NCBI RefSeq assembly: GCF_000007185.1
Contig: NC_003551.1
Location: forward strand, 1,530,001-1,562,000
Direction: 5' to 3'
Origin: Methanopyrus kandleri AV19
GTDB taxonomy: Archaea; JAADCQ01; Methanopyri; Methanopyrales; Methanopyraceae
DNA: 32,000 nt
Under the pieces are notes generated by a model. It was not told where the DNA came from. It did no database searches and was given only the letters and a program-made list of their open reading frames with translations. Shown one piece after another: positions 3,695 through 21,530 of this stretch. Numbering within the stretch: the stretch's first letter is position 1; every line of letters starts with the position of its first letter. A program made the translations under genes and the position numbers.

Positions 3695-3709
3695 ATCGGG
3701 GGAAGCGGC

Positions 3710-7218: not shown

Positions 7219-7247
7219 CGGGTGCGAAGACCGGTGGGGGTCGCGGG

Positions 7248-7487
7248 TTGGTAAAGATAGTCATTCACGAGGAACGTTGTCACGGATGCGGTAACTGCGT
7301 GATCGCTTGCCCGGTCAACGCTTGTAATTCCCCTAACGTATGGGGCGGAAAGGGTCCCGAAGACGGTGAAGATGTAGTGATCAAGGTCGTGAACGGGACG
7401 GTCTCGGTGATTAACGAGGACCTGTGCGAAGCGTGCATGACCTGCGAACTCGCCTGCCCCGTGGACGCTATCGAGATCAAAACGTAG
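7248..7487 (+). CDS. fwdG: Formylmethanofuran dehydrogenase subunit G (2x[4Fe-4S] ferredoxin, 79 aa)
   Basis: Two cluster motifs, CHGCGNCVIACP and CEACMTCELACP. The size and the position directly upstream of fwdD-fwdB match FwdG. Confidence 0.75.
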   Translation: MVKIVIHEERCHGCGNCVIACPVNACNSPNVWGGKGPEDGEDVVIKVVNGTVSVINEDLCEACMTCELACPVDAIEIKT

Positions 7488-7501
7488 GGGAGCCACGAAA
7501 G

Positions 7502-7897
7502 ATGGCCGAATTCACCCTGCTCACGGGTCGAACGATCTGGCAGGGTGAAGCTATCGAAACCGACAAGGCGGGCGAGATCTACCCCAACGCCACCGCCATC
7601 TGTTACTTCAATCCTAAGGACATGAGTGAGCTCGGCATCAGCGAGGGTGACCCCGTTAAGGTCAAGTCCAAATACGGCGAAGTAATCGTACGGGCTAAAG
7701 CCGCGGACACCGACGTGCCACCTCGCGGTATAGTTTTCATTCCGATGGGCCCCTGGGCCAATAAAGTCGTGGATCCGAACACCAAGAGTACGGGAATGCC
7801 CGGCTTCAAGGGGATAAAGGTCGAGATAGAACCTACTGACGAAGAGCCGATCGAAGACATGTCTGAATTCATGCGCTCCGAGTATCTCTCCGAATAA
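7502..7897 (+). CDS. fwdD: Formylmethanofuran dehydrogenase subunit D (molybdopterin dinucleotide-binding domain)
   Basis: ATG 7502 inside ORF 7424..7897, with GGGGAG upstream. The sequence MAEFTLLTGRTIWQGEA..GDPVKVKSKYGEVIVRAKAADTDVPPRGIVFIPMGPWAN is typical FwdD. Confidence 0.85.
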   Translation: MAEFTLLTGRTIWQGEAIETDKAGEIYPNATAICYFNPKDMSELGISEGDPVKVKSKYGEVIVRAKAADTDVPPRGIVFIPMGPWANKVVDPNTKSTGMPGFKGIKVEIEPTDEEPIEDMSEFMRSEYLSE

Positions 7898-7980
7898 CCT
7901 CATGGTAGCTTGGTGGTTCACGTTTACCCATCATTTTCATCGAATATCGACATCGCTAACAACGGGAAGGGGGTGAAAAA

Positions 7981-9282: not shown

Positions 9283-9364
9283 GCCCGGGCCGCCCCACGG
9301 GGCGAACCCCGTCCCCGGGGAGCCCCGTGGGGTGAAGCGGGGGCAAGTCCCCCGCGGCCCGGGC
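9283..9364 (+). promoter_or_regulatory. Archaeal SECIS element (3' of fwdB)
   Basis: An 11-bp closing stem GCCCGGGCCGC (9283-9293) / GCGGCCCGGGC (9354-9364). An inner 10-bp helix 9294-9303 / 9322-9331. An internal loop with GAA (9304-9306) opposite A9321. An apical helix CCCCG-uccc-CGGGG (9307-9320). A second hairpin GGGGG-caagu-CCCCC (9339-9353). Confidence 0.75.
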
Positions 9365-9399
9365 CTTTCACTCCGTAACTCCCTCCGGGGTGCGTCCAT

Positions 9400-9711
9400 A
9401 TGGAACTCCGATGCCCGTACTGCGGCTCGCGCTCCTGTGTGAACGAATCCGCCCTGTCGTTGTTCCTCCGGGCGTCCGAACGCGCCGCGAGGTACGTGGT
9501 CAAGGGGCGAGATGACGTGGACGAAGATCCGAACTTCCGTCCCTCGTTCGGTGAAGTCGGGATCTGTAAGGAGACTTCCAAGCGCATATGGGTGTGTCCA
9601 TACTGTCACTCCCTCATCCCGGAGCTCGAACCCGATGGGATGACCGCCCGATGTCCCGAATGCGGGCGGGAAGCTAACGTGGCACCCTCCCGCCGTAAGA
9701 TCGTGTGTTGA
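9400..9711 (+). CDS. Hypothetical zinc-ribbon protein (103 aa) embedded in the fwd operon
   Basis: ATG start with GGGGTG upstream. GC3-rich codons like the neighbouring genes. Cys pairs CPYC (5-8), CPYC (66-69) and CPEC (84-87), plus C13 and C55. Its end overlaps the fwdA start region. Confidence 0.55.
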   Translation: MELRCPYCGSRSCVNESALSLFLRASERAARYVVKGRDDVDEDPNFRPSFGEVGICKETSKRIWVCPYCHSLIPELEPDGMTARCPECGREANVAPSRRKIVC

Positions 9712-11495
9712 AAGGAGCACAGCTCCGGGTGTCGGATGGGGGGGTTCGTTTGGCCAAAGAACTTCTGATCAAGAACGCCTGCGTGTACGACCCCCTCAAC
9801 GGGATCGAAGGCGAGGTTATGGACATCGGGGTGAAGGACGGTAAGATCGTCGACCCTTCCGAAGTCGACGAGTCCAAGGCGAAGGTTATCGACGCGGAAG
9901 GTCGCCTGACAATGGCCGGAGGTGTCGACATCCACGCGCACGTGGCCGGTCCGAAGGTCAACGTGGGTCGTATATTCAGACCCGAGGACAGCCGCCGCCT
10001 CCAGGTGGCGATCAAGAAGCTCGGAACGCGTTCGGGTACTGGATTTTCGGTCCCGTCGACCACGATCACGGGGTACCTGTACGCCCAGATGGGATACACC
10101 ACCGTGATGGAAGCCGCCACCCCGCCGCTGCTGACCAGACACACCCACGAGGAGATCAGGGACACTCCGATCCTGGACGAAGGCGCGTACACGCTGATGG
10201 CCAACAACTGGATCCTGTACGAGTACATCAAGGAAGGCGAACTCGAAAAGGCGGCCGCGTACGCCGCCTGGTTGCTCCGAGCGACCAAGGGTTTTGTGAT
10301 AAAGATGGTGAACCCCGGCGGTACCGAGGCCTGGGGATGGGGTGAGAACGTCCACAGTCTGGACGATCCCGTACCCTACTTCGAGATCACCCCGGCCGAG
10401 ATCTACCAGAACTACGTCAAGATCAACGAGATGCTGGGTCTACCACACTCGATTCACATCCACCCGAACCTCCTCGGTGAGCCCGGTAACTACGAGATCA
10501 CGACGGACAGCTGGGACGTGATCAAGAAGACGGGTGTGGAGCCGAACCCCGAGATAGGTGAACGTGAGCAGGTCGTGCACAACACGCACGTACAGTTCCA
10601 CTCGTACGGCGGTGACTCTTGGCCGACGTTCGAGTCGAAGGCCGAGGAGGTCGCGAAATACCTGAACAAGAACGACCACGTGACGGTCGACCTGGGTGCG
10701 GTCACCCTGGACGAGACCACGACCATGACCGCCGACGGTCCGCTCGAGTGGGAGCTGCAGGAGCTGACGGGCTTCAAGTGGGCGAACTACGACGTCGAGC
10801 TTGAGACGGGATCGGGCGTGGTACCGTTCATCTACAGTCCGAAGAACCCCGTGCACTCGGTTCAGTGGGCTATCGGTCTGGAGATCGCGCTTCTAACCGA
10901 GAATCCATGGCAGGTCGTGATCTCGACGGACCACCCGAACGCGGGCCCGTTCATCCGGTACCCGAGGATCATCGCGTGGCTGATGAGCGAACCGTACCGT
11001 GAGGAGTGGATCGAAAACGTACACCCGTGGGTGGGCCAGCGCGCGGCGATCGCGACCATCGACCGCGAATACACATGGACCGACATCACGATCACGACTC
11101 GGGCCGCCCCGGCGAAGATGTTGGGTCTCTCGGACCGTATCGGACACCTGGGTGAGGGCGCTTACGCGCACATCGCCATCTACGACATCAAACCCGACGA
11201 GGTGGATCCCTCGCGGGACTACGAGGAAGTGGAGAAGGCCATGGAGCAGGCGTGGCTCGTAGTGAAGGACGGAGAGATCGTAGTTCAGGAAGGTGTAGTG
11301 GTGAACGAACCCGTCGGGCGTACTTACTGGGTCGACGTTAAGGTTCCGGAGGATCTGCTCGAGGAAGTCAAGAAGGACCTTGAGACGAAGTTCCGGCGCT
11401 ACTACTCCGTGAACCTGGGCAACTACCAGGTCCAGGACGTGTACATCCCGAAGGAGGAGCGAATCGTAATCGACGCCCGCGATCGCCTCTCGTAA
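9705..11495 (+). CDS. fwdA: Formylmethanofuran dehydrogenase subunit A (amidohydrolase fold)
   Basis: Sequences LLIKNACVYDPLNGIEGEVMDIGVKDGKIV and GGVDIHAHVAGPKVN, with a typical FwdA length. The coordinates give the maximal ORF. By comparison with homologue N-termini, the true start is more likely GTG 9729 or TTG 9750. Confidence 0.88.
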   Translation: MLKGAQLRVSDGGVRLAKELLIKNACVYDPLNGIEGEVMDIGVKDGKIVDPSEVDESKAKVIDAEGRLTMAGGVDIHAHVAGPKVNVGRIFRPEDSRRLQVAIKKLGTRSGTGFSVPSTTITGYLYAQMGYTTVMEAATPPLLTRHTHEEIRDTPILDEGAYTLMANNWILYEYIKEGELEKAAAYAAWLLRATKGFVIKMVNPGGTEAWGWGENVHSLDDPVPYFEITPAEIYQNYVKINEMLGLPHSIHIHPNLLGEPGNYEITTDSWDVIKKTGVEPNPEIGEREQVVHNTHVQFHSYGGDSWPTFESKAEEVAKYLNKNDHVTVDLGAVTLDETTTMTADGPLEWELQELTGFKWANYDVELETGSGVVPFIYSPKNPVHSVQWAIGLEIALLTENPWQVVISTDHPNAGPFIRYPRIIAWLMSEPYREEWIENVHPWVGQRAAIATIDREYTWTDITITTRAAPAKMLGLSDRIGHLGEGAYAHIAIYDIKPDEVDPSRDYEEVEKAMEQAWLVVKDGEIVVQEGVVVNEPVGRTYWVDVKVPEDLLEEVKKDLETKFRRYYSVNLGNYQVQDVYIPKEERIVIDARDRLS

Positions 11496-11522
11496 ACGTT
11501 CTTTCCTCGGGGGGTACCTCGG

Positions 11523-12326
11523 TTGAAAGAGGTCGTGTTGACGCCGAAAGGAGAACCGGACGTACCGCTCGAGGCCGAAGTTATATGCCCGGACGAGTTC
11601 GCGGGTAAGTCCGAGGGCGAGATCGAGGCGCTGAAAATCTACGAAGGTAACTCGACCGTCGAGCTCGGCGAGTACTTCGACGTGGAAGGGGATGCGGGCG
11701 ACTCGCCCGGGGACACCAGGATCGTGATCGAAGGGGACGTACCCTGGGTCAAGCTAATCGGGTACAGGATGAGCGCCGGTGAGATTCTGGTTAAGGGAGA
11801 TGTCGGCCGACATGCGGGCGCCGAGATGAAAGGAGGCAAGCTGATCGTGGAGGGGGACGCCGACGACTGGCTCGGTCGGGAGATGAAGGGTGGAGAGATC
11901 ACGGTGCACGGAAACGCCGGGAACTACGTGGGTTCCACGTATCGAGGTGAGTGGCGCGGGATGAGCGGTGGCCGTATCCTGGTGAAAGGGGACGCCGGCG
12001 ACGAGATCGGAGAGTGGATGTCCGACGGGAAGATCATAGTGGAGGGAGACGCGGGCATCATGATAGGAATTCACATGCAGGGAGGCACCATCATCGTGAG
12101 AGGAGACGTCGGAGTGCGTCCCGGCGCCCAGATGGAGGGAGGAACCGTCGTCGTCTGCGGCCGCGCCGAGGACATTCTGCCCAGCTTCCGATACGAGGGA
12201 CTCAAGGAGGACCCCGTGGAAGAAGCGACCGGGACCTTCCACCTGTTCACGGGCGACTACGCCAACGGGCCCAAGGTCGAGGGCGAACTGTACTTGAGCA
12301 CGGCGCTCAACGAGGTGCCGAGGTAA
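11523..12326 (+). CDS. fwdC: Formylmethanofuran dehydrogenase subunit C
   Basis: N-terminus MKEVVLTPKGEPDVPLEAEVICPDEFAGKS. Repeated beta-helix GDxG repeats (GDVGRHAGAEMKGGKLIVEGDADDWLGREMKGGEITVHGNAGNYVG..) of the GXGXG / glutamate synthase C-terminal-like fold. Confidence 0.88.
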   Translation: MKEVVLTPKGEPDVPLEAEVICPDEFAGKSEGEIEALKIYEGNSTVELGEYFDVEGDAGDSPGDTRIVIEGDVPWVKLIGYRMSAGEILVKGDVGRHAGAEMKGGKLIVEGDADDWLGREMKGGEITVHGNAGNYVGSTYRGEWRGMSGGRILVKGDAGDEIGEWMSDGKIIVEGDAGIMIGIHMQGGTIIVRGDVGVRPGAQMEGGTVVVCGRAEDILPSFRYEGLKEDPVEEATGTFHLFTGDYANGPKVEGELYLSTALNEVPR

Positions 12327-12351
12327 GCTCCTGCTCCCTCCAAACGACCGG

Positions 12352-12374
12352 TTCGTTATCTTTCCCTTAACGAA
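12352..12374 (+). repeat. Interrupted palindrome TTCGTTA-N9-TAACGAA, copy 1 of 3 in the window
   Basis: TCGTTA 12353-12358, 9-nt spacer TCTTTCCCT, TAACGA 12368-12373. It lies 26 nt after the fwdC stop and 21 nt before GTG 12396, and is followed by GGGGACCG. Confidence 0.6.
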
Positions 12375-12395
12375 TCCCTCTCGGGGACCGCCGAC

Positions 12396-12695
12396 GTGAA
12401 GACACTCCGGATGTCCCCCGAAGAGCTACTGGAGTACTTTCGGAAAGAGGTCGAGGAGGGAGATCGATTAGAGCTTAACTACGCGTTCGTACACATACCC
12501 GGCGAGGTCGTTAAAATCACGAGGTACCGCCTCCATCTGTACGTCGAGTCTGAGGTAGCCCCCGGGATTCGACGCTACGATCTGGAGGAGATATGCTCGA
12601 TGATGCTGGAAGTAATCCACGAGCCCAAGGAAGGGAAACCGGTTAAGATCGTCGTCGAGGGGGCCGACGAGAGTCCGGGCATAGGTATCCTCTAA
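12396..12695 (+). CDS. Hypothetical protein (99 aa) downstream of fwdC
   Basis: GC3-rich ORF with acidic composition (MKTLRMSPEELLEYFRKEVEEGDRLELNYAFVHIPGEVVK..). GTG 12396 or ATG 12411 are possible starts. No family was recognised. Confidence 0.45.
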   Translation: MKTLRMSPEELLEYFRKEVEEGDRLELNYAFVHIPGEVVKITRYRLHLYVESEVAPGIRRYDLEEICSMMLEVIHEPKEGKPVKIVVEGADESPGIGIL

Positions 12696-12780
12696 TTATG
12701 TTGACTACTTCTCAACACCTGAGGTATCAAAGTCAAAATTAAAAGACATCAACTCCGGCTCGGTTGAGGGCTATCCCCGG

Positions 12781-14628
12781 TTGACGAGGACGGCTTACGT
12801 GCTGCTAGCCCTGCTGGCGGCGCTGGTCGGACAGGCATCGGCGGCATCGGTAGGTTCGCAGCTGACCCTCGACACGGCGATGCAGTGGGACCAACAGCAG
12901 AACAAGTACGTGGATTCCGACGTGGCCGCCAGGGACGGTTACTACTACCAGGTCAAAGGGCCGGCCGTGGCGGTGGACAGCACGGGTACGGTACTGGTAG
13001 CCTGGGAGGAATGGTCCGAGAACGGCAACGTAGTCGGTAAGATAGGACTGAGAACACCATCTGGTAACGCAGTCTACGTGACCCCGGAGCAGGATTGCGT
13101 CTACTTCGCCCCGGCCCTGACGAGCTACGATCAGGGTAAGTTCCTCCTGGCCGTGACGGAAGTGCCGCAGAGCAACTTGGTCGCGCAGGATTACGGCAAG
13201 CTGCTAGTGTACAAGGTCGACGTCTCCAACGGCCAGATTACGGTGGGTTCCTCACCGGTACAGGTAGCCGATAACGCCGCCTACCCGCACGTGGTGTACC
13301 TGGGGTCGGACAACGACAACAGGTACGTGGCGATCGTGTACGAGCGGTGGAACGGAGAGACTGGCGACGTCGAACTGCAGGTGCTCAAGATCGACACGAA
13401 CGGGAACATCATCCCGGTCTTGAGTCAGCCGCTTGTTATCGCGGAAGGGGTGTGTAAGGACTACGTTAAGGGCGACGTTCACTACTTCGGGCACGCCAGA
13501 CCCGTGGCGTCGCTGTACCAAGAGGGTGACTCCAAGTACTTGATAGTGGTGCTGACGAACTACTCGCAAGCTACTCCCAACGTGAGCGAGTGGGGTTTCT
13601 ACGGCGAGTGGAAGGGGTGCAAGGTGGAGGCGTACGTGGTGGATCTCCCCGATTTCTCAACGATCGGTGGGTTAAGCTCGGAGAACGTGCACAAGGTACA
13701 AGGATCACTGTCGGCTTCCGAGGACACCAACGAGTGCCCGTGGGTATGCGACAACGTGGTAGTGTATCGGGTCGGATCGCTCTGGGGAGGGATGTCGGGG
13801 GACACCACGATCCCGGACATCAACGCCGCACTGATAGTGAAGTCGAGAGACTCCTGGACGTTCTCGTCGGACACCACGATCTACCGCCGTATCTACACGC
13901 AGACGGGTCCCGCCGTAGCCAGGGTCTACACGAACAATGACGATAAGACGCCGTACTACTTGGCGGTGTTCGCGGATAACAGCGGGGGTTTCGGTAAGGA
14001 GCGGTTAACGGGCGTCCTGTTCCGCGTCAAGGACGGGAAGATCCAGGTGATCGCGCAGTACGACCTCACGGGGTTCGGTAGTGGGTACTATTACTACTGT
14101 CCGACCGTAGCCACGGTCAAGAGCAAGTACGGAGATGCCGAGCTGGTTGTGGCCTGCTACAAGGGTGACAGCGGGAGCGGCGGCCATAACATCGGCGACG
14201 CCGTCATGCTGACGGTAAGCATCGGTGATCCCGTCGATGAGTTCATGTCGTCGGCCGCCGAGCTGCTCAACAGCCTGACTGGTACCGTGGACGTCGTGAA
14301 CAACGCGATCTTCAACAGCTACTCGGGGCTCAAGAAGAAGGTTTCCGACCTGGAGAAGAAGTCGAACGAGCTAACGCAGACCACTCAGGAGCTGCAGAAC
14401 AAGGTCTCCACACTCGAACAGGGTCAGGAGGAGCTGAAGCAGGAAGTAAGCAAGATCTCACAGGAGGTGAGTGGCCTGAAGGGCAGCATAGACGAGTGCA
14501 AGAACACCGTAGAAAACCTCGAAGAGCGCGTGAAGAAGCTCGAGCGTAGGAAGATCGCGGTATCACCGATGGCGGTACTGGCCGCCGCGTTGACGCTGGC
14601 GGCGTACAGGAGGTACGGCCGGCAATAG
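12781..14628 (+). CDS. Cell-surface protein: signal peptide, six-fold repeat domain, coiled-coil stalk, C-terminal membrane anchor
   Basis: TTG start with GAGGG upstream and AAAATTAAAAG (12735-12745) as a TATA candidate. Signal peptide MTRTAYVLLALLAALVGQASA. A motif of the form P-x-V/L-A..(6-10)..Y-h-h-V-h recurs six times (GPAVAVDSTGTVLVAW, FAPALTSYDQGKFLLAV, YPHVVYLGSDNDNRYVAIV, ARPVASLYQEGDSKYLIVV, GPAVARVYTNNDDKTPYYLAV, CPTVATVKSKYGDAELVVA). A heptad-rich Q/E/K segment spans about 14290-14560. TM tail IAVSPMAVLAAALTLAAY-RRYGRQ. Confidence 0.7.
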   Translation: MTRTAYVLLALLAALVGQASAASVGSQLTLDTAMQWDQQQNKYVDSDVAARDGYYYQVKGPAVAVDSTGTVLVAWEEWSENGNVVGKIGLRTPSGNAVYVTPEQDCVYFAPALTSYDQGKFLLAVTEVPQSNLVAQDYGKLLVYKVDVSNGQITVGSSPVQVADNAAYPHVVYLGSDNDNRYVAIVYERWNGETGDVELQVLKIDTNGNIIPVLSQPLVIAEGVCKDYVKGDVHYFGHARPVASLYQEGDSKYLIVVLTNYSQATPNVSEWGFYGEWKGCKVEAYVVDLPDFSTIGGLSSENVHKVQGSLSASEDTNECPWVCDNVVVYRVGSLWGGMSGDTTIPDINAALIVKSRDSWTFSSDTTIYRRIYTQTGPAVARVYTNNDDKTPYYLAVFADNSGGFGKERLTGVLFRVKDGKIQVIAQYDLTGFGSGYYYYCPTVATVKSKYGDAELVVACYKGDSGSGGHNIGDAVMLTVSIGDPVDEFMSSAAELLNSLTGTVDVVNNAIFNSYSGLKKKVSDLEKKSNELTQTTQELQNKVSTLEQGQEELKQEVSKISQEVSGLKGSIDECKNTVENLEERVKKLERRKIAVSPMAVLAAALTLAAYRRYGRQ

Positions 14629-16113
14629 GACGGGTACGCCCCTCTTGGACTTCTCTTGTCTTTTGTTCCCCTCTGTTTCTGTTCCTCCGGACACGGTCTC
14701 ACGCTCGGTCTTGGATACTGATTCGTTCCCGTTCGGTTTCGTTATTTTTCCGTAAAACAGCTCCGGGTTCAGGTAGGCCTCGAGCGCCCGCATCGCGTAG
14801 GCCGTGGCCCATATCGACGCCGGTTCGTAGTGGGCCCCTTCGGTCGTGGACGTCACATCCCGAGCCGGCCACGGCCAGGCTCCGTACCACTCCGGGTGTT
14901 CGGTCCCACGGTACCGCTGGGATACGAGCCACTCGACGGTGGCGTGGAGGTTGTACTCCGGGTCCGTCACGAGATCCGAGAGCTTGCGCTTACCGCCTGG
15001 CGTCTCGATCTCCACGTCCGTCGCGACATCGAACCACAGCGCCTTCAGCAGCACGAGGCTCAGGACGTTCCCCGTGACGGTCGTCTCCGGCGATCCCTGC
15101 GCTTCTAGATAAGCCGACGAGTACGCCCAGGCGGGGCCCCGACCGTGACTTCCTTCCACCCACGTTACTCCGGCTTCCTCACCGTTGAAGAGCCACTCGA
15201 TGCCCCTGCGGATGGCGTTCAGGATCCGATCGCGGTCCACGTGGAGCCCGAGCCGGTCCGCCTTCAAGTAGACGTCTATCAGAGTCGACAGGATGTATGC
15301 CTGAGTGTCCGCCGAGTACTCTTGGCACATCAGCCCGGAGTACCAAGATCCGTCCGGGTTCTGACGCTCCAGCAGCCAGGAGACTCCCCGCTCGATGGCG
15401 CTTTTGATCCGATCCACCGCACTGTCGTCGAGGTTCAGCAGGTCACGGCGTTCCAACGCCATCAACAACGCCGCGACCGCCGCACGGGTGTGCCACGGAG
15501 CTCCTTCCCGGGCTTCCTCCCTCTTCCTACTCCAGCCACCGTCCTCCAGCTGTTGGTCCAGGAGCCAGGTCAGTCCCCTGCGTACGGCGCTCACGAGCTC
15601 CCCGTATTCCCCACCCGACTCGTGTCGCCGCTCGATCTCGTGGATCAGCAGCATGATCGCAACCGCGGTGTCGCTGGTTAAACTGCCCGAGTGGGTTATG
15701 CCCCTGTACGTCCACGCCTGTCCCCAGCCGCCGTCCTCGTTCTGGTTGTCGAGTACCCACCTGACGGCCTCCTCGGAAGCCTTAGACCACTCCGACGTCG
15801 GCGTCATCGCCGGCACACCGGCGGGCACCCTATCGGCTAGTAATCCAGCGCGCTCCGCGCTTTCCAGCGTGGGATACACCAGCGAGATCGCCTTCAGCTC
15901 GTATCCGAACGTCAGCTGAGGGTTCCACAAGTGAGCCGAAGCCAAGTAGGGACCGCCGCGATCCGTGGTGATGAACCACCATACGGTGCCCGCTTTCACG
16001 GCGTCCGCGCACTCCGTCTGGAGCTCCTTATACGGCTCCGTATTCTTCCAGTCCAGCGCCGTCGTCGGTGCGGCGGTTATCAGAACGGCTATCGTGGCGA
16101 CTAGGACGCGCAC
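14563..16113 (-). CDS. Secreted prenyltransferase / terpene-cyclase-like (alpha-alpha toroid repeat) protein
   Basis: Inner GTG 16113 of ORF 14563..16239, with GGGGGAG upstream, gives the signal-like N-terminus MRVLVATIAVLITAAPTTA. Repeats NQNEDGGWGQAW, QQLEDGGWSRK and RQNPDGSWYSG are spaced as in prenyltransferase/squalene-cyclase repeats. The C-terminus is a low-complexity charged tail. Confidence 0.7.
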   Translation of the reverse strand: MRVLVATIAVLITAAPTTALDWKNTEPYKELQTECADAVKAGTVWWFITTDRGGPYLASAHLWNPQLTFGYELKAISLVYPTLESAERAGLLADRVPAGVPAMTPTSEWSKASEEAVRWVLDNQNEDGGWGQAWTYRGITHSGSLTSDTAVAIMLLIHEIERRHESGGEYGELVSAVRRGLTWLLDQQLEDGGWSRKREEAREGAPWHTRAAVAALLMALERRDLLNLDDSAVDRIKSAIERGVSWLLERQNPDGSWYSGLMCQEYSADTQAYILSTLIDVYLKADRLGLHVDRDRILNAIRRGIEWLFNGEEAGVTWVEGSHGRGPAWAYSSAYLEAQGSPETTVTGNVLSLVLLKALWFDVATDVEIETPGGKRKLSDLVTDPEYNLHATVEWLVSQRYRGTEHPEWYGAWPWPARDVTSTTEGAHYEPASIWATAYAMRALEAYLNPELFYGKITKPNGNESVSKTERETVSGGTETEGNKRQEKSKRGVPVLLPAVPPVRRQRQRGGQYRHR

Positions 16114-16214
16114 GCGCTCGCTCCCCCAAACCTTTAATCTCGATGAACCGGACCGTAACGAACCTACAACGTACGGTAGATGAAGAAAATAAAAGTTGAG
16201 TCCGTATCGGCGCG
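16114..16214. promoter_or_regulatory. Shared 101-bp divergent promoter region between the toroid-repeat gene and the CobN-like gene
   Basis: Two AT-rich boxes: TTTAATCT (about 16133-16140; reads AGATTAAA on the minus strand) and GAAAATAAAAG (about 16184-16194). Each lies 20-30 bp from its respective start codon. Confidence 0.35.
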
Positions 16215-19200
16215 ATGGGGGCCGACACCTCCGTGGCACCGGTCTTGATCCTCGTCATGGTGTTCCTAGCGGTCTCGGTCCCCGCGCACTCGCTGGACAT
16301 TGTGATATTCGGGAACGCCGCGAAGGGATCACCCGAGGAGATCCGTGCTGTGGAGGAGCGTGTGAAGGAAGACCTGGGTGTGGACGTTCGAATTCACGTG
16401 CACAACGTGCTCGTCAGCTGGTCCGATCAGAGCGCTCCGGTGGACTTCGACTCGCTGGCCCACGACATCGAACGCTCCGAGATCGTCGCCCTAGACAACA
16501 TGGGACCCATGCCGACACCGTTTGCGATGGAGTTATCGGAGCGCGTCTTGGGTAAACCCGCCTCCTCGATGCAGGAGTTCCTCAGAGAGCTCGCGGAGAG
16601 GAAGCGGATAGTGGCCTACGTGACAGGCGACCAGCACGATTTCGTGATCTTAGGGTCCGGCTGCCGGCGTATAGTCGACGGTACCGCCGCGGTCGTTAAC
16701 TTGGGCTTCCTGTTCCGGTTTTCCTCGGATCTGACACCGGTCATAGAGTTCCTGGTGTGGCTCGCGGATCCGTCGGTACCGGCGGAGAGACTACACCTCT
16801 CCGACGTACGGATATCGTCCGCTGCCGTCTACGTGCCGGGCCGAGGTTGGGAGTTCCCCGAAGTATCTGGAGAAGCTCTCGAGATGTCGTACCACCGGTG
16901 GCTTCACGCGCTAGAGGGTCGGGATCGCACCACCGAACCACTCTGGACGAAGGTCCGCCTGAGCTCGATACCATCGTGGGTGAAAGCCATCCGGGAAGCA
17001 TCCTCGCAGTTCTTCCGGTCCCTGTGGCTCCCGAACCGACGCGTCGTGGTGGTGCTGGACTACATCGACGCACTATACAAGGGTGAGAGGGATCTCGTGG
17101 AGAAGCTCACCGATACCGTGTATCGGGAGGTCTCCCGGGAGTTCCAGGACGTGACGGCGATAGCCGTTCTGTGCGACGGGAACATGGTCTCGCCGATCGA
17201 GGCGCTGCTCGGGTTGAAAGACGCCGGATACGACATCGCGGCCGTGGTCTCCCTGTGGGCCTTCACGCTCGATTACCCCAAACCCGGTACTTGGGCACTC
17301 GAAGGAATCGACGCCCCGATCATCAAGGCAGTTTACCCGTTCTGGGCCAATTGGATGGACGAACCACAGCGCTACTTGAACATGAACGAGGGGGACCCGG
17401 AGTCCGGTCGCGTGGGCGCGCTCTTCGAGTGGGGTTACCAGGTGATCGGCGGGCCCGAACCCGAGGGTGCCTTCTGGTTCAAGATGATCGCGCTCAAGGA
17501 GCGCGACCAAATGATGGTGTTCCCGCTGGAGGACATGATCGAGGACGTGGCCCGGATGGTGGCGGGGTTCCTGAGGCTGCGGTACTTGCCCGAGTCGGAG
17601 AAACGGGTAGCGTTCGTGCTGTACTGTTACCCGCCGGGACGCGGTGAGATCGGCGCCTCTTACCTGGACGTGTTCCGGTCCCTGGTGAGGATATTCGAGG
17701 CGTTGGCGGAACGGGGCTACGATCTTGGCCCCGCGACCTCCCTGTACCGGAAGTTGGCGGAGCTCCGACGGGAAGACCCGAAAGCCGCTGAAGAGATGGA
17801 GAAACGTCTCGCGCACGCTTTGATGGCGGCGTCCGATCTCGTACTGAAGAACGTGGGTCCGTGGGCTAAGGGTGAGCTAGCCGGGATGGTGCGGCTGTAC
17901 CGAGGCGGGCGGGCCGAGGTGAGCGTCGACTGGAACGGGAAGTCGATGAAGGTGATCGTGGACCACGGTGTGCTCCGGTGGATCGACGTGGACGGCTCGT
18001 CGTACGTGCTCGGGACCGTGAGCGAGGATCAACTAGTCCCGGTGGAGGCGCTGGAACGCTGGTACCGGGAGGATGTGGTGCGGAGGTTCGAGTATTACCT
18101 CTCGCTGCTGACCGGTGACGATCCGGAGACCGAGCGGGCTCGGAAGTCCCTGATGGAGTGGATGCGGGCGATCGAGGAGAAGTTCGGACCGCCCACGGAC
18201 AACCGCGGGATCATGAGGTACGGCCTGTATTATGTCATCCCGGCCCTGCGACTGGGCAACGTGGTCGTGATGCTTCAGCCGGTACGTGGTTGGTCCGGAA
18301 GCCCCGAGCTGGTCTACCACTCCCCGGACCTACCCCCGCAATGGCAGTACGTCGCCGCGTACGAATGGTTGCGCAGGGTCTTCCGGGCGGACGCCGTGGT
18401 CCACGTGGGTACGCACGGAACCCTCGAGTGGCTGCCGGGTCATCAGGTCGGTCTTCTGGGCGTGGACTGGCCGCACGTGCTGCTGCCCGACGTGCCCCAT
18501 GTGTACCTTTACATCGTCAGCAACCCGGGCGAAGCGATGGTCGCCAAGTACCGCTCCGGTCCGATCCTCCTCACGCACTTGTCGCCGCCGTGGGGCTACT
18601 TCAAGGACCTGGGTAAGTACGGGGAGCTGGAGCGTGAGCTCACGAGGTACTTCCAGATGAAGAGCTTCGGAGGAGACCCTCACGTGCTGGAGGAGCTGAG
18701 GCGGCGGATCGTCGAGACGGCGGAGCGTCTGGGACTGCTGAAGGACGTCGTCAACATGATATTCGCGGAGCGGAAGGAACCGCCGCCCGAGAACCCGAAG
18801 GAGTGGGCGATGGATCATATCGAGGAGTTCATAGACAAGCTCCACGATTTCCTACTGGACCTCGCGTTGAGGAACGTCGCGTACGGCCTGCACGTATACG
18901 GTGAGGACGTAGACGAGGACGTGGCCGTAGAGCAGGCCGCGGCGCTCGCGTCCTCCCGTGTCGCCCCGGTGTTCGCGTACTACGCCGGGCTGATCGACTC
19001 ACCGGACCAGGAGGCGCTGAACCGGCTGCAGTCCGATAGACCCGACATATTCGCGTGGTTCAAGCGCGAACTCCGGGAGTGTCTGAGGGATATCCTGCGG
19101 ACCGTTCTAAAGTACCCCGATTTAACCTCTCAGCTGGAACGTTACGTGGAACTGAAAGATCGGGAAGAATACTACGGCGAACCACCCGACGGCGTCGAAG

Positions 19201-21530
19201 GTCCGGGAAGGGAGGCGAAACGCCTGTTCTGGCAGGTATCCGATAGGCTCACGATCTTGGCGCAGGAGGCCATCCTGAGGTATTTCCACGGCCGGCGGAA
19301 TGACCCTGACCACGAGCACCTCCTCGCCGAGGCCGTGGCCGACCTGTACAGGATCTACGTACACTACCGCGACTCGGGCCGGACCGAGCTGGAGGAACTG
19401 CTCGCCGCCCTCGACGGCAGGTTCGTCCCGCCGGGACTACTGGGCGAGCCGATGTGGAACACGAAGGTCCTACCCACCGGACGGGACGGCTACCCGATAG
19501 ACCCCTCCCAAATGCCCACGCCGGAGGCGTGGGACGTCGCACGCAAGCTAGTCGATCAGATGCTCGCGGACTACTACCTAAGACACGGTAGGTGGCCGGA
19601 GGCCGTGGGCGTGGTCCTATGGGGTATTCACGAACTCTGCACCGGCGGTCTAGGCATCGCGGAGGTCCTGTACCTGCTGGGCGTGAGACCCGTGTGGAAC
19701 CCGGACACCGGGCAGGTCACCGGGGTCGAGCTGATCCCGCTGGACGAGCTGAAGGTGAAGGTCGGTAACCGGTGGATCAACCGACCGAGGATCGACGTGG
19801 TGGTGTGGGCCGCCCTGCACATGGAGGACCCGCTGAAGCTACTGACTGAGGCTTACTATCTGGTCTCCCATGTGGACGAACCCACCGACGTGAACTACCG
19901 TCGGAAGCATTATCTGGAGCTGAAGCCGCGGTTAGTGAAGGAACTTGAGAAGAGCGGGATGTCACCCGAAGATGCCGAGAAAGAGGCCGACGTGATCGCG
20001 TCCTCGGGGTTCTTCGCGCAACCACCCGGGGTCTACGCGGGTACCGGGGCTTGCGACATCGTGGAGCACGCCTGGACCGACGTCTCGGGCACGGTCGGGC
20101 TCTTCGAGGACCCCGAGACGGCGCTGAAGAACTTCGAGCAGAGATTTTGGGAGAAGTTCAGGATCACCTGTGAGAGCCGGATGGCGTACGTCTACACGGC
20201 CGAGGCCCGGATCCTGACGATCCGAGAGGGGAACAAGGTCAGGGTCGTCGTGCTGAGGACGAGCACGGACCGCGTCTACCACGCGATCCCGTCGGTCGAG
20301 GCGTTCCGGTACCTGATGTCCAAGGTCGACGTCGTGGTTCACAGCGTCGTGAACACGTGGGGATTGATCGACACGGACGACTTCTACGACTGGGTCGGTG
20401 GGATGGCACTGTATGCGACGCACGCCGCGGGCCACGCGCCGGAAGTGTACATCGGGAACGCCGTCGATCCGACCGCCGCAAGGACGTTGACGGGTTACCA
20501 GCAGCTGGTGGGTGAGGTCTACACGAAGCTACTCAGCGAGTCCTGGTGGAAGGCCATGCTGGAGCACGGTGACTACGGCTGGTCCCGGATCGTCAGGAGG
20601 ATCGAGTTCCTGGCCGGGTGGGGGATCACGGTCCCGTCACTGCGTCCCTACCTGAACTCCGTGTACACCGAGGTGTTCAAGGCTGTGGTACAGTGGATCA
20701 GCCAGGCGCCTCCCCGCACCGAGTACGGGTGGGCGGCCGTGGTGAGCACGATCGCGTGGTTCGTGGAGCTCGCTCGGACGGGTGTGTGGAAGCCGGACTC
20801 GAAGACGCTGGCACAGGCCGCGAAGGTCCTACTGGAGACGATGGCCAAACACGGGCCCGCGACGTGTCACCACACCAGTCCCAACCCGGCGTTAGTGGTG
20901 TACGCCGCTCGGGTCCTCCTGGAGGCCGGTTACTCCTACTCCGAGGTCAAGCGGCTCCTGTCCAAGGTGATGAAGTGGTACGCCAAGCTGGACAACCCGG
21001 AGATCGTCCGGGAGATCGAGAGGTTAACGAACCTGGTGATGACCAGGGCGGCGAGTGAGAGGTCGGCCAGGGCCGCCACGGCGTCCCGTTCGGCGGCGAC
21101 CTCGTCATCGGCGTACACCGGCGTTACTGTCTCCCGGACGGTTTCGTCGTTCACCGGACCGGGACTGCCCGGAGGGAGGGGAAGTGCTCAGGTCGTAGTG
21201 GGGTTGTTGGGATCGGTGTTACGGGGTGTTGCACGCGGAACGGTGCTCCCGGAGATCGGATACTGGACGGGTCCCTCGAGATACACCGGTCACGCGAAGG
21301 CAGGTTCGAGGGTCGGGAAGACCGAGCGCAGTACCGAACGCGAGTCGAAGGCGACGCAGACGTTCACCAGGACCTCCCCGCCCTCCTCGGCCCCTAAGAT
21401 GATCTGGGAATGGGTCGCCGCCCTGCTCCTGACACTACTGTTCCTCCTGGTGTGGAGGATCCGACCGACGGGTCCCAGACCGCGGGCTACGTGGGTTACG
21501 CCAGCAACCGTTCCGCCAGTCGCCGCGTGA
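16215..21530 (+). CDS. CobN/ChlH-family chelatase-like protein, 1771 aa, with N-terminal hydrophobic leader and C-terminal membrane anchor
   Basis: CobN core motifs: ADAVVHVGTHGTLEWLPGHQVGL, LYIVSNPGEAMVAKYRSGPILLTHLSPP, LPTGRDGYPIDP, VVLWGIHELCTGG and the C-terminal WWKAMLEHGDYGW. N-terminus MGADTSVAPVLILVMVFLAVSVPAHS. An S/T/A-rich linker (..AATASRSAATSSSAYTGVTVSRTVSS..) precedes the TM segment WEWVAALLLTLLFLLVW. Confidence 0.85.
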   Translation: MGADTSVAPVLILVMVFLAVSVPAHSLDIVIFGNAAKGSPEEIRAVEERVKEDLGVDVRIHVHNVLVSWSDQSAPVDFDSLAHDIERSEIVALDNMGPMPTPFAMELSERVLGKPASSMQEFLRELAERKRIVAYVTGDQHDFVILGSGCRRIVDGTAAVVNLGFLFRFSSDLTPVIEFLVWLADPSVPAERLHLSDVRISSAAVYVPGRGWEFPEVSGEALEMSYHRWLHALEGRDRTTEPLWTKVRLSSIPSWVKAIREASSQFFRSLWLPNRRVVVVLDYIDALYKGERDLVEKLTDTVYREVSREFQDVTAIAVLCDGNMVSPIEALLGLKDAGYDIAAVVSLWAFTLDYPKPGTWALEGIDAPIIKAVYPFWANWMDEPQRYLNMNEGDPESGRVGALFEWGYQVIGGPEPEGAFWFKMIALKERDQMMVFPLEDMIEDVARMVAGFLRLRYLPESEKRVAFVLYCYPPGRGEIGASYLDVFRSLVRIFEALAERGYDLGPATSLYRKLAELRREDPKAAEEMEKRLAHALMAASDLVLKNVGPWAKGELAGMVRLYRGGRAEVSVDWNGKSMKVIVDHGVLRWIDVDGSSYVLGTVSEDQLVPVEALERWYREDVVRRFEYYLSLLTGDDPETERARKSLMEWMRAIEEKFGPPTDNRGIMRYGLYYVIPALRLGNVVVMLQPVRGWSGSPELVYHSPDLPPQWQYVAAYEWLRRVFRADAVVHVGTHGTLEWLPGHQVGLLGVDWPHVLLPDVPHVYLYIVSNPGEAMVAKYRSGPILLTHLSPPWGYFKDLGKYGELERELTRYFQMKSFGGDPHVLEELRRRIVETAERLGLLKDVVNMIFAERKEPPPENPKEWAMDHIEEFIDKLHDFLLDLALRNVAYGLHVYGEDVDEDVAVEQAAALASSRVAPVFAYYAGLIDSPDQEALNRLQSDRPDIFAWFKRELRECLRDILRTVLKYPDLTSQLERYVELKDREEYYGEPPDGVEGPGREAKRLFWQVSDRLTILAQEAILRYFHGRRNDPDHEHLLAEAVADLYRIYVHYRDSGRTELEELLAALDGRFVPPGLLGEPMWNTKVLPTGRDGYPIDPSQMPTPEAWDVARKLVDQMLADYYLRHGRWPEAVGVVLWGIHELCTGGLGIAEVLYLLGVRPVWNPDTGQVTGVELIPLDELKVKVGNRWINRPRIDVVVWAALHMEDPLKLLTEAYYLVSHVDEPTDVNYRRKHYLELKPRLVKELEKSGMSPEDAEKEADVIASSGFFAQPPGVYAGTGACDIVEHAWTDVSGTVGLFEDPETALKNFEQRFWEKFRITCESRMAYVYTAEARILTIREGNKVRVVVLRTSTDRVYHAIPSVEAFRYLMSKVDVVVHSVVNTWGLIDTDDFYDWVGGMALYATHAAGHAPEVYIGNAVDPTAARTLTGYQQLVGEVYTKLLSESWWKAMLEHGDYGWSRIVRRIEFLAGWGITVPSLRPYLNSVYTEVFKAVVQWISQAPPRTEYGWAAVVSTIAWFVELARTGVWKPDSKTLAQAAKVLLETMAKHGPATCHHTSPNPALVVYAARVLLEAGYSYSEVKRLLSKVMKWYAKLDNPEIVREIERLTNLVMTRAASERSARAATASRSAATSSSAYTGVTVSRTVSSFTGPGLPGGRGSAQVVVGLLGSVLRGVARGTVLPEIGYWTGPSRYTGHAKAGSRVGKTERSTERESKATQTFTRTSPPSSAPKMIWEWVAALLLTLLFLLVWRIRPTGPRPRATWVTPATVPPVAA

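What the first reader, a model, noticed from the sequence alone, without database searches (positions are those of the whole stretch)
16215..21530. CobN-family protein with leader peptide, S/T-rich linker and C-terminal TM anchor
The CobN core is intact (VHVGTHGTLEWLPG, SNPGEA, LPTGRD, the C-terminal HGDYGW region). It is flanked by MGADTSVAPVLILVMVFLAVSVPAHS at the N-terminus. At the C-terminus there is a linker of about 130 aa rich in S, T, A, R and G, ending in WEWVAALLLTLLFLLVW. At 1771 aa it is several hundred residues longer than typical CobN proteins. The N-terminal n-region lacks positive charge, so whether it is a cleaved signal or an uncleaved TM segment is uncertain. Either way the protein is membrane-tethered, which is unexpected for this family.
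Basis: partly seen in the sequence, partly recalled or inferred. Interest (0 to 1): 0.65.

Follow-up and report, generated by a model that had tools for sequence, protein, structure and literature searches.

The report
Surface-anchored CobN-like protein in Methanopyrus
This heat-loving methanogen makes a giant relative of the metal-inserting enzymes CobN and ChlH that is exported and tethered to the outside of the cell membrane, like the bacterial heme iron-stripping enzyme HmuS; the layout is real but common among uncharacterised relatives, and its substrate is unknown.

Summary
ORF 16215..21530 (+) encodes a 1771-aa protein with a strong CobN/Mg-chelatase match. It has exactly two strongly hydrophobic segments, at aa 6-24 and aa 1729-1747.

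Orthologues at 41-82% identity all keep the same plan: a leader, a low-complexity stalk, a C-terminal helix and a basic tail. A structure model shows about 100 disordered residues separating the C-terminal helix from the fold. The protein is therefore most likely an exported, type-I anchored ectoenzyme.

The layout is not unexpected for the superfamily. Bacteroides HmuS and BtuS1/2 are published as membrane-anchored, periplasm-facing CobN homologues. Of the 150 nearest cluster representatives, 47 have both anchors and 17 more have the C-terminal one.

All anchored forms, including HmuS and this protein, fall on one side of a single tree split. They share a C-terminal module that cytoplasmic CobN and ChlH lack.

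This protein is neither a true CobN nor a strict HmuS. Three catalytic residues are kept, and the fourth is Asp, as in CobN. No AAA+ partner and no hmuTUV-like gene lies in the window. Instead, a secreted alpha/alpha-toroid protein and a stalked surface protein are conserved neighbours.

The function, probably ATP-independent metal removal or capture outside the cell, is inferred and not shown.

The parts
16215..21530 (+). Whole gene: exported, membrane-anchored CobN/ChlH/HmuS-superfamily protein, 1771 aa. The alternative start GTG 16233 gives 1765 aa.
   Evidence: ORF list. Pfam CobN-Mg_chel E = 1.1e-181. 100%-identical database protein P0001 on a 1,694,969-bp contig, with 82%-identical proteins named from Methanopyrus.
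16215..16292 (+). N-terminal leader, aa 1-26 (MGADTSVAPVLILVMVFLAVSVPAHS). Probably a Sec signal peptide cleaved after AHS. An uncleaved anchor is not excluded.
   Evidence: Highest hydropathy window of the protein, 2.44. A hydrophobic leader ending in small residues is kept in P0002-P0008 although the sequence differs. No Cys (so no lipobox) and no twin-Arg motif, read directly from the sequence.
16293..17144 (+). Divergent N-terminal region, about aa 27-310. It occupies the position of the chelatase head domain but is not recognisable by sequence.
   Evidence: aa 1-410 match no solved-structure sequence. Profile-profile comparison recovers only the neck, about aa 310-437, against anchored relatives (96% probability) and weakly against cytoplasmic CobN.
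18162..20807 (+). Chelatase body, aa 650-1531 (best Pfam stretch, profile positions 347-1089 of 1090).
   Evidence: Model of aa 1040-1771 has pLDDT above 90 through aa ~1623, and Foldseek hits CobN 9fpc (E = 1.7e-22), HmuS 9d26 (1.4e-21) and ChlH.
18402..18431 (+). Active-site motif 1, HVGTHGTLEW. H734 corresponds to ChlH H621 and HmuS H538; E738 corresponds to ChlH E625.
   Evidence: Alignment. Residue roles from PMC13297055 and PMC12583661.
18519..18536 (+). SNPGEA. E773 corresponds to the catalytically essential ChlH E660.
   Evidence: Alignment. Role from PMC13297055.
20367..20402 (+). Active-site motif 2, IDTDDFYDWVGG. D1389 sits where ChlH has H1174 and HmuS has H1209. Asp at this position is the CobN state.
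   Evidence: Alignment with HmuS-type P0030 (LSLDHVYEFMGG), BchH-type and CobN-type sequences.
20841..21083 (+). C-terminal extra helical module, aa 1543-1623, with GPATCHHTSPN. This is a degenerate form of the G..CCHHTC.N motif of anchored relatives. Cytoplasmic CobN and ChlH lack the module; HmuS has it.
   Evidence: Alignment. The motif is linked to the C-terminal anchor: 51 with both, 13 anchor only, 4 motif only, 82 neither. The profile of this region matches HmuS 9d26 through the module at E = 3.7e-48, while CobN and ChlH alignments stop before it. Modelled as confident helices.
21084..21389 (+). Disordered S/T/A/G/R-rich stalk, aa 1624-1725.
   Evidence: pLDDT 24-31 with no secondary structure. 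Composition. Length and sequence are not conserved among orthologues.
21399..21455 (+). C-terminal transmembrane anchor, aa 1729-1747 (MIWEWVAALLLTLLFLLVW).
   Evidence: Hydropathy 2.15. Isolated helix in the model. The IW.WV..LLLT core is kept in P0002-P0008.
21456..21530 (+). Short basic cytoplasmic tail (RIRPTGPRPRATWVTPATVPPVAA) and stop codon. The last 35 nt overlap the convergent aspartokinase ORF as listed, whose stop codon (21496-21498) lies inside the tail.
   Evidence: Basic tails are general in anchored relatives.
16114..16214 (.). Divergent intergenic region between the toroid gene and the CobN-like gene. It holds A/T-rich TATA-like elements: AAACCTTTAAT near the toroid start, conserved in L001, and AAAATAAAAG at 16187-16196.
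   Evidence: Sequence. That these are promoter elements is inference only.
14563..16113 (-). Conserved divergent neighbour: a secreted (alpha/alpha)6-toroid protein, 516 aa from GTG 16113. It has a leader, a barrel at aa 20-459, a disordered tail and a conserved C-terminal Pro/Arg motif.
   Evidence: Pfam SQHop_cyclase_C. Adjacent to the CobN-like gene in L001 and L002, and one gene away in L003. Model pLDDT 81.7. Close homologues occur only in Methanopyrus-like genomes.
12781..14628 (+). Conserved neighbour: a stalked surface protein, 615 aa, with a signal peptide, a globular part, a coiled coil, a C-terminal helix and an RRYGRQ tail.
   Evidence: Homologues sit beside the toroid and CobN-like genes in L001 and L003.

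Best explanation
The gene encodes an extracytoplasmic, membrane-tethered member of the class I chelatase large-subunit superfamily (CobN/ChlH/HmuS).

Topology. A Sec-type leader takes the roughly 1600-residue catalytic part across the membrane. A disordered stalk of about 100 residues and one C-terminal helix with a basic cytoplasmic tail hold it at the cell surface, beneath or within the wall layers.

Family. It belongs to the same exported, anchored branch as the Bacteroides heme dechelatase HmuS, but it is a separate, Methanopyrus-lineage variant.

Mechanism. There is no ATP outside the cell and no AAA+ motor subunit nearby. It therefore most likely works without ATP, in the thermodynamically downhill direction. 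It would bind a metallated tetrapyrrole (or the metal itself) in the conserved central cavity formed by H734, E738, E773 and D1389. It would then release or hand over the metal for uptake, serving trace-metal (Ni, Co or Fe) or tetrapyrrole scavenging. It possibly acts together with the co-conserved secreted toroid protein and the stalked surface protein.

Shown here: family membership, the two terminal hydrophobic segments and their conservation, the disordered stalk, retention of the catalytic residues, clade membership, and the conserved neighbours.

Inferred: signal cleavage, outside orientation, ATP independence, direction of the reaction, and substrate.
For: Topology:
- Only two hydrophobic segments, both terminal; 0 of 5000 shuffles reproduce this.
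- Both are conserved in orthologues at 41-82% identity, while the stalk is not.
- Basic residues follow the C-terminal helix.
- In the model the fold ends at aa ~1623, aa 1624-1725 are disordered, and the helix at aa 1726-1747 is isolated.
- Relatives in the same branch carry typical extracellular domains (CarboxypepD_reg, CARDB, DUF3344, SdrD_B) on the same polypeptide.

Clade:
- In a neighbour-joining tree of the body region (128 sequences), one split holds all 58 C-anchored sequences.
- The Mk group and the HmuS-type sequences fall on that side in 40 of 40 bootstraps.
- The C-terminal module is shared with HmuS only.

Catalytic competence:
- H734, E738 and E773 match ChlH H621, E625 and E660.

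ATP independence and the scavenging role:
- No ChlI, ChlD, CobS or CobT in the 32-kb window, and none among the 25 most frequent of 127 Pfam families found in the neighbours of 13 archaeal loci.
- HmuS removes iron from heme without ATP and is membrane-bound (PMC12583661).
- In Methanobacteriales, anchored paralogues are followed by DUF2162, MotA/ExbB and DUF2149 genes, in the order of hmuS-T-U-V.
- Other anchored paralogues lie beside NikR, FeoAB, nicotianamine synthase, CbiM or CbiZ genes.
- A Methanothermobacter 'CobN1' rises about 300-fold under nickel limitation (PMC12350162).
Against: - No experiment or dedicated predictor (SignalP, DeepTMHMM) was available. Leader cleavage and outside orientation rest on sequence rules and comparison.
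- The leader lacks a positively charged n-region in the Methanopyrus sequences.
- The protein lacks the HmuS family signatures (LSLDHxxEFMGG with His-1209 and Glu-1212; the Met-rich insertion), so a dechelatase mechanism cannot simply be transferred.
- No hmuTUV-like, NikR, CbiM or Feo gene lies in the window or in the three related loci.
- Methanopyrus grows autotrophically. By general knowledge it has no cytochromes, so an external tetrapyrrole substrate is not obvious.
- The nickel-induced CobN1 could not be shown to be of the anchored type. The anchored Methanothermobacter CobN2 (P0326) is not nickel-induced.
- The Mk sequence has no N-X-S/T sequon, so glycosylation gives no support.
Confidence: 0.45

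Rival explanations
1. It is an extracellular metal-capture protein. The anchored ectodomain binds free Ni(II) or Co(II) (or another trace metal) in its cavity or at the Cys/His module and passes it to an uptake system, with no tetrapyrrole chemistry.
For: - Authors of PMC12350162 list CobN1 among 'possible metal-chelating proteins' made only under nickel limitation; it rises about 300-fold.
- The anchored branch carries a conserved G..CCHHTC.N motif.
- NikR, CbiM, Feo and nicotianamine synthase genes lie next to some anchored paralogues.
Against: - In the Mk group the Cys/His motif is reduced to TCHHTS, with a single Cys.
- The residues conserved best are those of the tetrapyrrole active site.
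- The type of CobN1 is unknown, and the anchored CobN2 is not nickel-induced.
- No metal transporter or regulator lies next to the Mk gene.
Confidence: 0.25
2. It is a cell-envelope structural or scaffold protein, a pseudo-enzyme. It has kept the chelatase fold but serves in the surface layer together with the stalked coiled-coil protein and the toroid protein.
For: - Conserved three-gene cluster of surface-type proteins in Methanopyrus-like genomes.
- Head region diverged beyond recognition.
- Long branch and scores far below curated cut-offs.
Against: - The catalytic His and Glu residues and the cavity motifs are strictly kept across orthologues down to 41% identity.
- The body is modelled with pLDDT above 90 as a normal chelatase body.
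Confidence: 0.12
3. It is an ordinary cytoplasmic cobaltochelatase CobN. The hydrophobic ends are artefacts of a wrong start codon and a read-through, or they are buried helices.
For: - Public annotation of close homologues is 'cobaltochelatase subunit CobN'.
- Motif 2 has the CobN-type Asp.
- An in-frame GTG (V30) lies just after the leader.
Against: - All eight orthologous ORFs extend through a hydrophobic leader, and all keep the C-terminal helix.
- The helix is separated from the fold by about 100 disordered residues.
- The best CobN equivalog scores 415 bits against a cut-off of 1619.
- No CobS or CobT in the window.
- Methanogens use the anaerobic, early-cobalt route, stated for Methanothermobacter in PMC3087415. 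The window has a CbiG-like gene.
Confidence: 0.03

Closest known systems
HmuS heme dechelatase of Bacteroides thetaiotaomicron / Porphyromonas gingivalis (PDB 9D26; PMC12583661), and the CobN-like BtuS1/BtuS2 of B. fragilis (PMC6460266)
   Same: - Same superfamily and overall plan: N-terminal hydrophobic segment, chelatase head/neck/body, extra C-terminal helical module, C-terminal membrane helix.
- Predicted to face away from the cytoplasm, with no AAA+ partner.
- Same side of the only anchored/unanchored split in the tree, 40 of 40 bootstraps.
- The profile of the C-terminal region matches HmuS best (E = 3.7e-48) and through the extra module.
- The superfamily His of H.G(T/A)HG is kept.
   Different: - Motif 2 is IDTDDFYDWVGG, not LSLDHxxEFMGG. 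The second axial His and its Glu partner are absent.
- No Met-rich insertion.
- The head domain cannot be aligned, so the Met-79/His-254 heme site cannot be scored.
- No hmuY/R/T/U/V-type genes nearby.
- The host is an archaeon without an outer membrane, and a long disordered stalk precedes the anchor.
- Pairwise sequence score to HmuS (226 bits) is lower than to CobN (276 bits).
Anchored 'CobN' paralogues of other methanogens, e.g. Methanothermobacter marburgensis CobN2 (P0326) and Methanobacterium, Methanobrevibacter and Methanosphaera proteins (P0009, P0011, P0036, P0313, P0344)
   Same: - Signal peptide, chelatase body with GTHGTLEW and D.DD motifs, C-terminal module, low-complexity stalk, helix and basic tail.
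- They are the best-scoring relatives outside the Mk group.
   Different: - Only 29-40% identity over parts of the protein.
- They have the full CCHHTC motif, often N-terminal CarboxypepD_reg, CARDB or Ig-like domains and many N-X-S/T sequons.
- They are frequently followed by DUF2162, MotA/ExbB and DUF2149 genes.
- The Mk group has none of these. It has the toroid and stalked-protein neighbours instead.
CobN, large subunit of the aerobic-pathway cobaltochelatase CobNST (PDB 7C6O, 9UK9, 9FPC)
   Same: - Best pairwise sequence and structure matches (276 bits; Foldseek E = 1.7e-22).
- Asp at the motif 2 position.
   Different: - CobN is cytoplasmic, about 1250 aa, without leader, C-terminal module, stalk or anchor.
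- It works with the CobS/CobT AAA+ motor.
- The Mk protein is far below the CobN equivalog cut-offs.
ChlH/BchH, large subunit of magnesium chelatase (PDB 4ZHJ, 6YSG)
   Same: Same fold. H621, E625 and E660 equivalents are conserved.
   Different: - The H1174 equivalent is Asp.
- No DUF3479 N-terminal domain.
- ChlH is cytoplasmic or plastidial and needs ChlI/ChlD and ATP.
- TIGR02025 scores 400 bits against a cut-off of 829.

Membership tests
CobN/ChlH/HmuS superfamily (Pfam PF02514, class I chelatase large subunit) | Significant match to the CobN-Mg_chel profile above the gathering score | tested here: met
   606.8 bits against a cut-off of 24.5, E = 1.1e-181.
CobN/ChlH/HmuS superfamily (Pfam PF02514, class I chelatase large subunit) | Superfamily-wide H.G(T/A)HG motif with the cavity His, and the catalytic Glu of the N(N/D)P.E motif | tested here: met
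   HVGTHG (H734), E738, and SNPGEA (E773), aligned with CobN, BchH and HmuS-type sequences.
CobN/ChlH/HmuS superfamily (Pfam PF02514, class I chelatase large subunit) | Chelatase body fold (domains V-VI) | tested here: met
   Model of aa 1040-1771. The top 20 Foldseek hits are all CobN, HmuS or ChlH, E = 1e-18 to 1e-22.
Cobaltochelatase CobN (aerobic B12 pathway) | Score above the curated equivalog cut-offs (TIGR02257, NF004645 and others) | tested here: not met
   366 bits against 822; 415 bits against 1619. All nine models are below cut-off.
Cobaltochelatase CobN (aerobic B12 pathway) | Works with the CobS/CobT AAA+ subunits, in the cytoplasm | tested here: not met
   No AAA+ chelatase subunit gene in the 32-kb window. 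Predicted exported topology. The rest of the genome was not searched.
Magnesium chelatase ChlH/BchH | Score above the TIGR02025 cut-off; His at the H1174 position | tested here: not met
   400 bits against 829. Asp (D1389) at that position.
HmuS heme dechelatase family (as defined in PMC12583661) | Anchoring by N- and C-terminal hydrophobic helices, catalytic part outside the cytoplasm | tested here: met
   Two terminal hydrophobic segments, conserved, with a basic tail. Orientation is inferred, not measured.
HmuS heme dechelatase family (as defined in PMC12583661) | Extra C-terminal helical module after domain VI | tested here: met
   Profile A1 aligns to HmuS residues 1190-1400, including the C....C.N segment. 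CobN and ChlH alignments end about 40-50 profile positions earlier.
HmuS heme dechelatase family (as defined in PMC12583661) | LSLDHxxEFMGG motif with His-1209 and Glu-1212 | tested here: not met
   The Mk protein has LIDTDDFYDWVGG. The HmuS-type control P0030 has LSLDHVYEFMGG in the same columns.
HmuS heme dechelatase family (as defined in PMC12583661) | Methionine-rich insertion of about 120 residues in domain IV | tested here: not met
   At most 7 Met in any 100-aa window; 2.3% Met overall. The HmuS-type sequences available here (P0030, P0215, P0285, P0299) reach only 5-10 Met per 100-aa window, so the scan had no positive control.
HmuS heme dechelatase family (as defined in PMC12583661) | Head/neck heme site Met-79 / His-254 | tested here: inconclusive
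   The N-terminal ~300 residues cannot be aligned to HmuS, CobN or ChlH by sequence or profile.
HmuS heme dechelatase family (as defined in PMC12583661) | hmu operon context (hmuT, MotA/ExbB-type hmuU, DUF2149-type hmuV) | tested here: not met
   phmmer with archaeal DUF2162, ExbB and DUF2149 queries finds nothing in the window or in L001-L003. It finds them in five Methanobacteriales-type and six bacterial loci.
HmuS heme dechelatase family (as defined in PMC12583661) | ATP-independent removal of iron from heme | not testable with these tools
   Needs biochemistry.

The most novel reading that the evidence does not exclude
Archaeal surface-anchored class I chelatase homologues and bacterial HmuS form one ancient exported branch whose general job is to strip or capture trace metals outside the cell.

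In methanogens the metals would be nickel or cobalt, taken from F430-like or corrinoid compounds or from solution. In most methanogens the system would be coupled to a MotA/ExbB-DUF2149-DUF2162 membrane module.

The Methanopyrus lineage would have replaced that module with a secreted (alpha/alpha)6-toroid ligand-binding partner and a stalked surface scaffold. That would give a previously unrecognised extracellular tetrapyrrole/metal-salvage machine in a heme-free hyperthermophile.
Probability: 0.2. Interest if true: 0.75.

Novelty: new variant of a known kind. Interest (0 to 1): 0.5.

Why it matters
The authors of the HmuS structure paper state that the role of the many archaeal HmuS/CobN/ChlH homologues is unclear (PMC12583661). 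This work narrows that question in four ways.

- A large share of those 'CobN' annotations, including this Methanopyrus gene and Methanothermobacter CobN2, are exported, anchored proteins. They belong to the HmuS side of the family tree and carry the HmuS-only C-terminal module.
- They are therefore unlikely to be B12 or F430 biosynthetic chelatases. They become candidates for extracellular metal or tetrapyrrole scavenging in organisms with very high nickel and cobalt demand.
- The 'cobaltochelatase subunit CobN' label on these genes is probably a systematic misannotation.
- The Methanopyrus variant, with a CobN-like active-site Asp, no heme-using host metabolism and its own partner genes, is a good test case for what chemistry the anchored branch performs beyond heme dechelation.

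Tried and rejected
1. N-glycosylation sequons as evidence for surface exposure. The Mk protein has none, and the enrichment in mesophilic relatives is mild. Not used.
2. The idea that the toroid neighbour is a transcobalamin-like corrinoid binder. Foldseek gives only generic (alpha/alpha)6 barrels (class II terpene cyclases, complement TED domains, AGE-type epimerases, GH76) with TM-scores of 0.5 or less. No specific function could be assigned.
3. A regulatory operator in the divergent intergenic region. The only inverted repeat (ACCGTA-N14-TACGGT, 16152-16177) is at chance level for a 150-nt region and is absent from L001 and L002.
4. Scoring the HmuS head-domain heme ligands. The N-terminal ~300 aa align with nothing.
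5. Linking the nickel-induced Methanothermobacter CobN1 (UniProt D9PVN3) to the anchored type. Its sequence could not be retrieved. Only CobN2 (P0326, 164 kDa) could be identified, and it is anchored but not nickel-induced.
6. The genome-wide scan with the C-terminal profile was dominated by the general D.DD motif. It returned many cytoplasmic bacterial CobN loci, and only the first ~20 loci were informative.
7. Literature searches for a published description of membrane-tethered archaeal CobN paralogues, or of this Methanopyrus protein, found none. The library is incomplete, so this is not proof of absence.
8. The C-terminal fragment alone against solved structures gave no hit. Only the profile did.


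Full report
**1. What is there**

The window has about 61% G+C. A 100%-identical copy of the protein lies on a 1,694,969-bp contig, and its closest relatives, at 81-82% identity, are named from Methanopyrus.

ORF 16215..21530 (+) encodes 1771 aa. Pfam CobN-Mg_chel matches at E = 1.1e-181, with the best stretch at aa 650-1531 covering profile positions 347-1089 of 1090.

A 19-residue hydropathy scan finds exactly two strong segments. They are aa 6-24 (score 2.44) and aa 1729-1747 (score 2.15); the next best window scores 1.58. None of 5000 shuffles of the sequence had strongly hydrophobic windows at both ends. Canonical CobN and BchH sequences have no such segment.

**2. Are the ends real and conserved**

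Seven full-length homologues at 82-41% identity (P0002-P0008) all show the same plan. They come from Methanopyrus and from unnamed assemblies.
- A short N-terminal hydrophobic leader ends in small residues: AHS, GHS, VSA, VSS, ATA, ARA.
- A low-complexity S/T/A/G/R (or N/T) stretch follows the fold. Its length and sequence are not conserved.
- A conserved IW.WV..LLLT helix comes next.
- An Arg-rich tail closes the protein.

The database copy of the window protein starts at GTG 16233. That is six codons after the ATG, and it still includes the entire leader. All orthologous ORFs run through a hydrophobic leader, so a start downstream of it is unlikely.

An AlphaFold2 model of aa 1040-1771 has mean pLDDT 76.9. 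The fold is confident (pLDDT above 90) up to about aa 1623. Residues 1624-1725 have pLDDT 24-31 and no secondary structure. Residues 1726-1747 form an isolated helix, and the tail is disordered. The C-terminal helix is therefore not a buried core helix.

Together with the basic tail, this fits a type-I topology: leader, ectodomain, stalk, anchor and a short cytoplasmic tail. Whether the leader is cleaved could not be tested with a dedicated predictor. Its 12-17-residue hydrophobic core and small -3/-1 residues favour cleavage. The missing positive charge in the Methanopyrus sequences is a mild argument against. More distant orthologues begin MRP.

**3. Is this unusual for the family**

No. Bacteroides HmuS, a CobN/ChlH homologue, is described as a membrane-bound, ATP-independent heme dechelatase. 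It is predicted to be anchored by N- and C-terminal helices (PMC12583661). B. fragilis BtuS1/2 were predicted to be exported and membrane-attached (PMC6460266).

An exhaustive search of 1.84 billion cluster representatives with aa 640-1640 gave 3219 hits.
- Of the best 150, 47 have both a leader and a C-terminal anchor, 17 have the C-terminal anchor only, 8 have the leader only, and 78 have neither.
- Anchored representatives have a median length of 1573 aa (range 1243-3293). Unanchored ones have a median of 1251 aa. The 1771 aa of this protein is normal for its group.
- The anchor goes with an extra C-terminal module carrying G..CCHHTC.N: 51 have both, 13 the anchor only, 4 the motif only, and 82 neither.
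- The Methanopyrus group has a degenerate form of the motif, GPATCHHTSPN.

A profile of this C-terminal region matches HmuS (9D26) best, at E = 3.7e-48. The match runs through the module, whereas alignments to CobN and ChlH stop before it.

A neighbour-joining tree of the body region used 128 sequences and 705 columns. It has one split with all 58 C-anchored sequences on one side. The other side holds 61 sequences, 60 of them without either anchor. The Methanopyrus group and the HmuS-type sequences were on the anchored side in 40 of 40 bootstraps.

Several anchored relatives carry typical extracellular domains on the same chain: CarboxypepD_reg, CARDB, DUF3344 and SdrD_B. One of them, Methanothermobacter marburgensis CobN2 (P0326, 164.1 kDa), has been detected by proteomics.

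**4. What kind of family member is it**

It is about equally distant from solved CobN (276 and 266 bits), ChlH (240 bits) and HmuS (226 bits). It lies far below every curated CobN and BchH cut-off.

Three of the four residues described as essential in ChlH are conserved. H621, E625 and E660 (PMC13297055) correspond to H734, E738 and E773. The fourth, ChlH H1174 or HmuS H1209, is Asp (D1389), as in CobN.

Two HmuS family signatures are absent: LSLDHxxEFMGG and the Met-rich insertion. The first ~300 residues align with nothing, so the HmuS head-domain heme site cannot be scored.

It is therefore a member of the exported branch that contains HmuS. It is not an HmuS in the strict sense, and it is not a biosynthetic CobN.

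**5. Surroundings**

The window has no ChlI, ChlD, CobS or CobT gene.

Immediately upstream and divergent lies a secreted (alpha/alpha)6-toroid protein (14563..16113, -). Its model has pLDDT 81.7, and its structural matches are only generic. Before it lies a stalked coiled-coil surface protein (12781..14628, +).

Both accompany the CobN-like gene in two related loci, L001 and L003. The toroid protein also sits next to the 41%-identical homologue in L002. Close homologues of the toroid protein occur only in Methanopyrus-like genomes.

In Methanobacterium, Methanobrevibacter and related genomes the picture differs.
- The anchored paralogue is followed by DUF2162, MotA/ExbB and DUF2149 genes.
- That is the order of hmuS-T-U-V in P. 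gingivalis, where hmuU is MotA/ExbB-type and hmuV is DUF2149-type (PMC11681262).
- None of these genes is in the window or in the three related loci.

Other anchored paralogues lie beside NikR, CbiM, FeoAB, nicotianamine synthase, an ECF S-component or CbiZ genes.

A Methanothermobacter 'CobN1' rises about 300-fold under nickel limitation (PMC12350162). I could not establish whether CobN1 is of the anchored type.

**6. Mechanism**

Shown: an intact chelatase cavity on a polypeptide built for export and tethering, no motor subunit nearby, and kinship with an ATP-independent dechelatase.

Inferred: the protein acts outside the cytoplasm without ATP. It would remove or capture a metal from a tetrapyrrole or from solution, in the service of trace-metal or cofactor scavenging. 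The toroid and stalked proteins are possible partners.

I put the topology at about 0.85 and the specific functional reading at about 0.35-0.45. Pure metal capture (0.25) and a structural pseudo-enzyme role (0.12) remain open. A cytoplasmic CobN with artefactual ends is very unlikely (0.03).

**7. Verdict**

The membrane-tethering interpretation is supported. The claim that this is unexpected for the family is not.

The protein is a lineage-specific variant of a known but poorly explored kind. Its main value is to show that many archaeal 'CobN' genes belong to the exported HmuS-like branch, and to offer a heme-free organism in which to ask what that branch does.

Noticed in passing
window 12781-14628 (+): A 615-aa protein with a Sec-type leader (MTRTAYVLLALLAALVGQASA), a ~460-aa part with no family match, a ~100-aa coiled coil (weak SlaB/SMC-like hits), and a C-terminal helix with an RRYGRQ tail. 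It looks like a stalked surface protein. It is conserved beside the toroid and CobN-like genes in L001 and L003.
   Followed up: partly
window 14563-14700 (-), C-terminus of the toroid protein: All Methanopyrus-like homologues of the toroid protein end in a conserved Pro/Arg motif, G[VL]P[VA][LI]P.[VI]P[PV].RR[QK], after a disordered E/K/S/T linker. It is too short and too Pro-rich for a normal membrane helix. It may be a lineage-specific sorting or anchoring signal. Its last 22 codons overlap, antisense, the 3' end of the neighbouring gene.
   Followed up: no
L007, L008, L010, L032, L041, L088 (downstream of the anchored CobN-like gene): Methanobacteriales-type genomes have a conserved four-gene row: anchored CobN-like, DUF2162, MotA/ExbB, DUF2149. 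This mirrors hmuS-T-U-V of Bacteroidota, although PMC12583661 says Archaea lack complete hmu operons. Bacterial loci L006, L015, L018, L025, L027 and L038 have ExbB and DUF2149 upstream of the CobN-like gene.
   Followed up: partly
L087 (Methanobacterium assembly GCA_002494785.1), around 1463-20495: An anchored CobN-like gene sits in a metal/corrinoid neighbourhood: nicotianamine synthase, FeoA-FeoA-FeoB, NikR, an MFS transporter, an ECF S-component, an MtrA-like protein, CbiZ, a double ABC ATPase, and a second CobN paralogue.
   Followed up: no
window 21456-21527 (+): The cytoplasmic tail of the Methanopyrus-type proteins keeps an RP.R...TW motif (GPRPRATW; GHRPPRNEATW in P0006). This hints at a conserved cytoplasmic contact.
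   Followed up: no
window 3491-12326 (+): Upstream of the surface-protein cluster lie a tungstate/molybdate-type ABC transporter (binding protein, permease, ATPase), MoeA, and formylmethanofuran-dehydrogenase-like subunits (molybdopterin, amidohydrolase and GXGXG types). The Fwd-like genes keep the same order in L001. M. marburgensis cobN1 also lies next to an 'FwdC-related' gene, and P0036 lies next to an FmdE-domain protein. This may be coincidence.
   Followed up: no
window 16215 vs 16233: There are two candidate starts, ATG 16215 and GTG 16233. An A/T-rich AAAATAAAAG at 16187-16196 is placed about right for a TATA box of a leaderless or nearly leaderless transcript. The choice changes only the first six residues.
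   Followed up: partly
window 2641-3588 (-): A C-5 cytosine DNA methyltransferase gene (Pfam DNA_methylase, E = 5e-51) lies between a CbiG-like gene and the ABC transporter.
   Followed up: no
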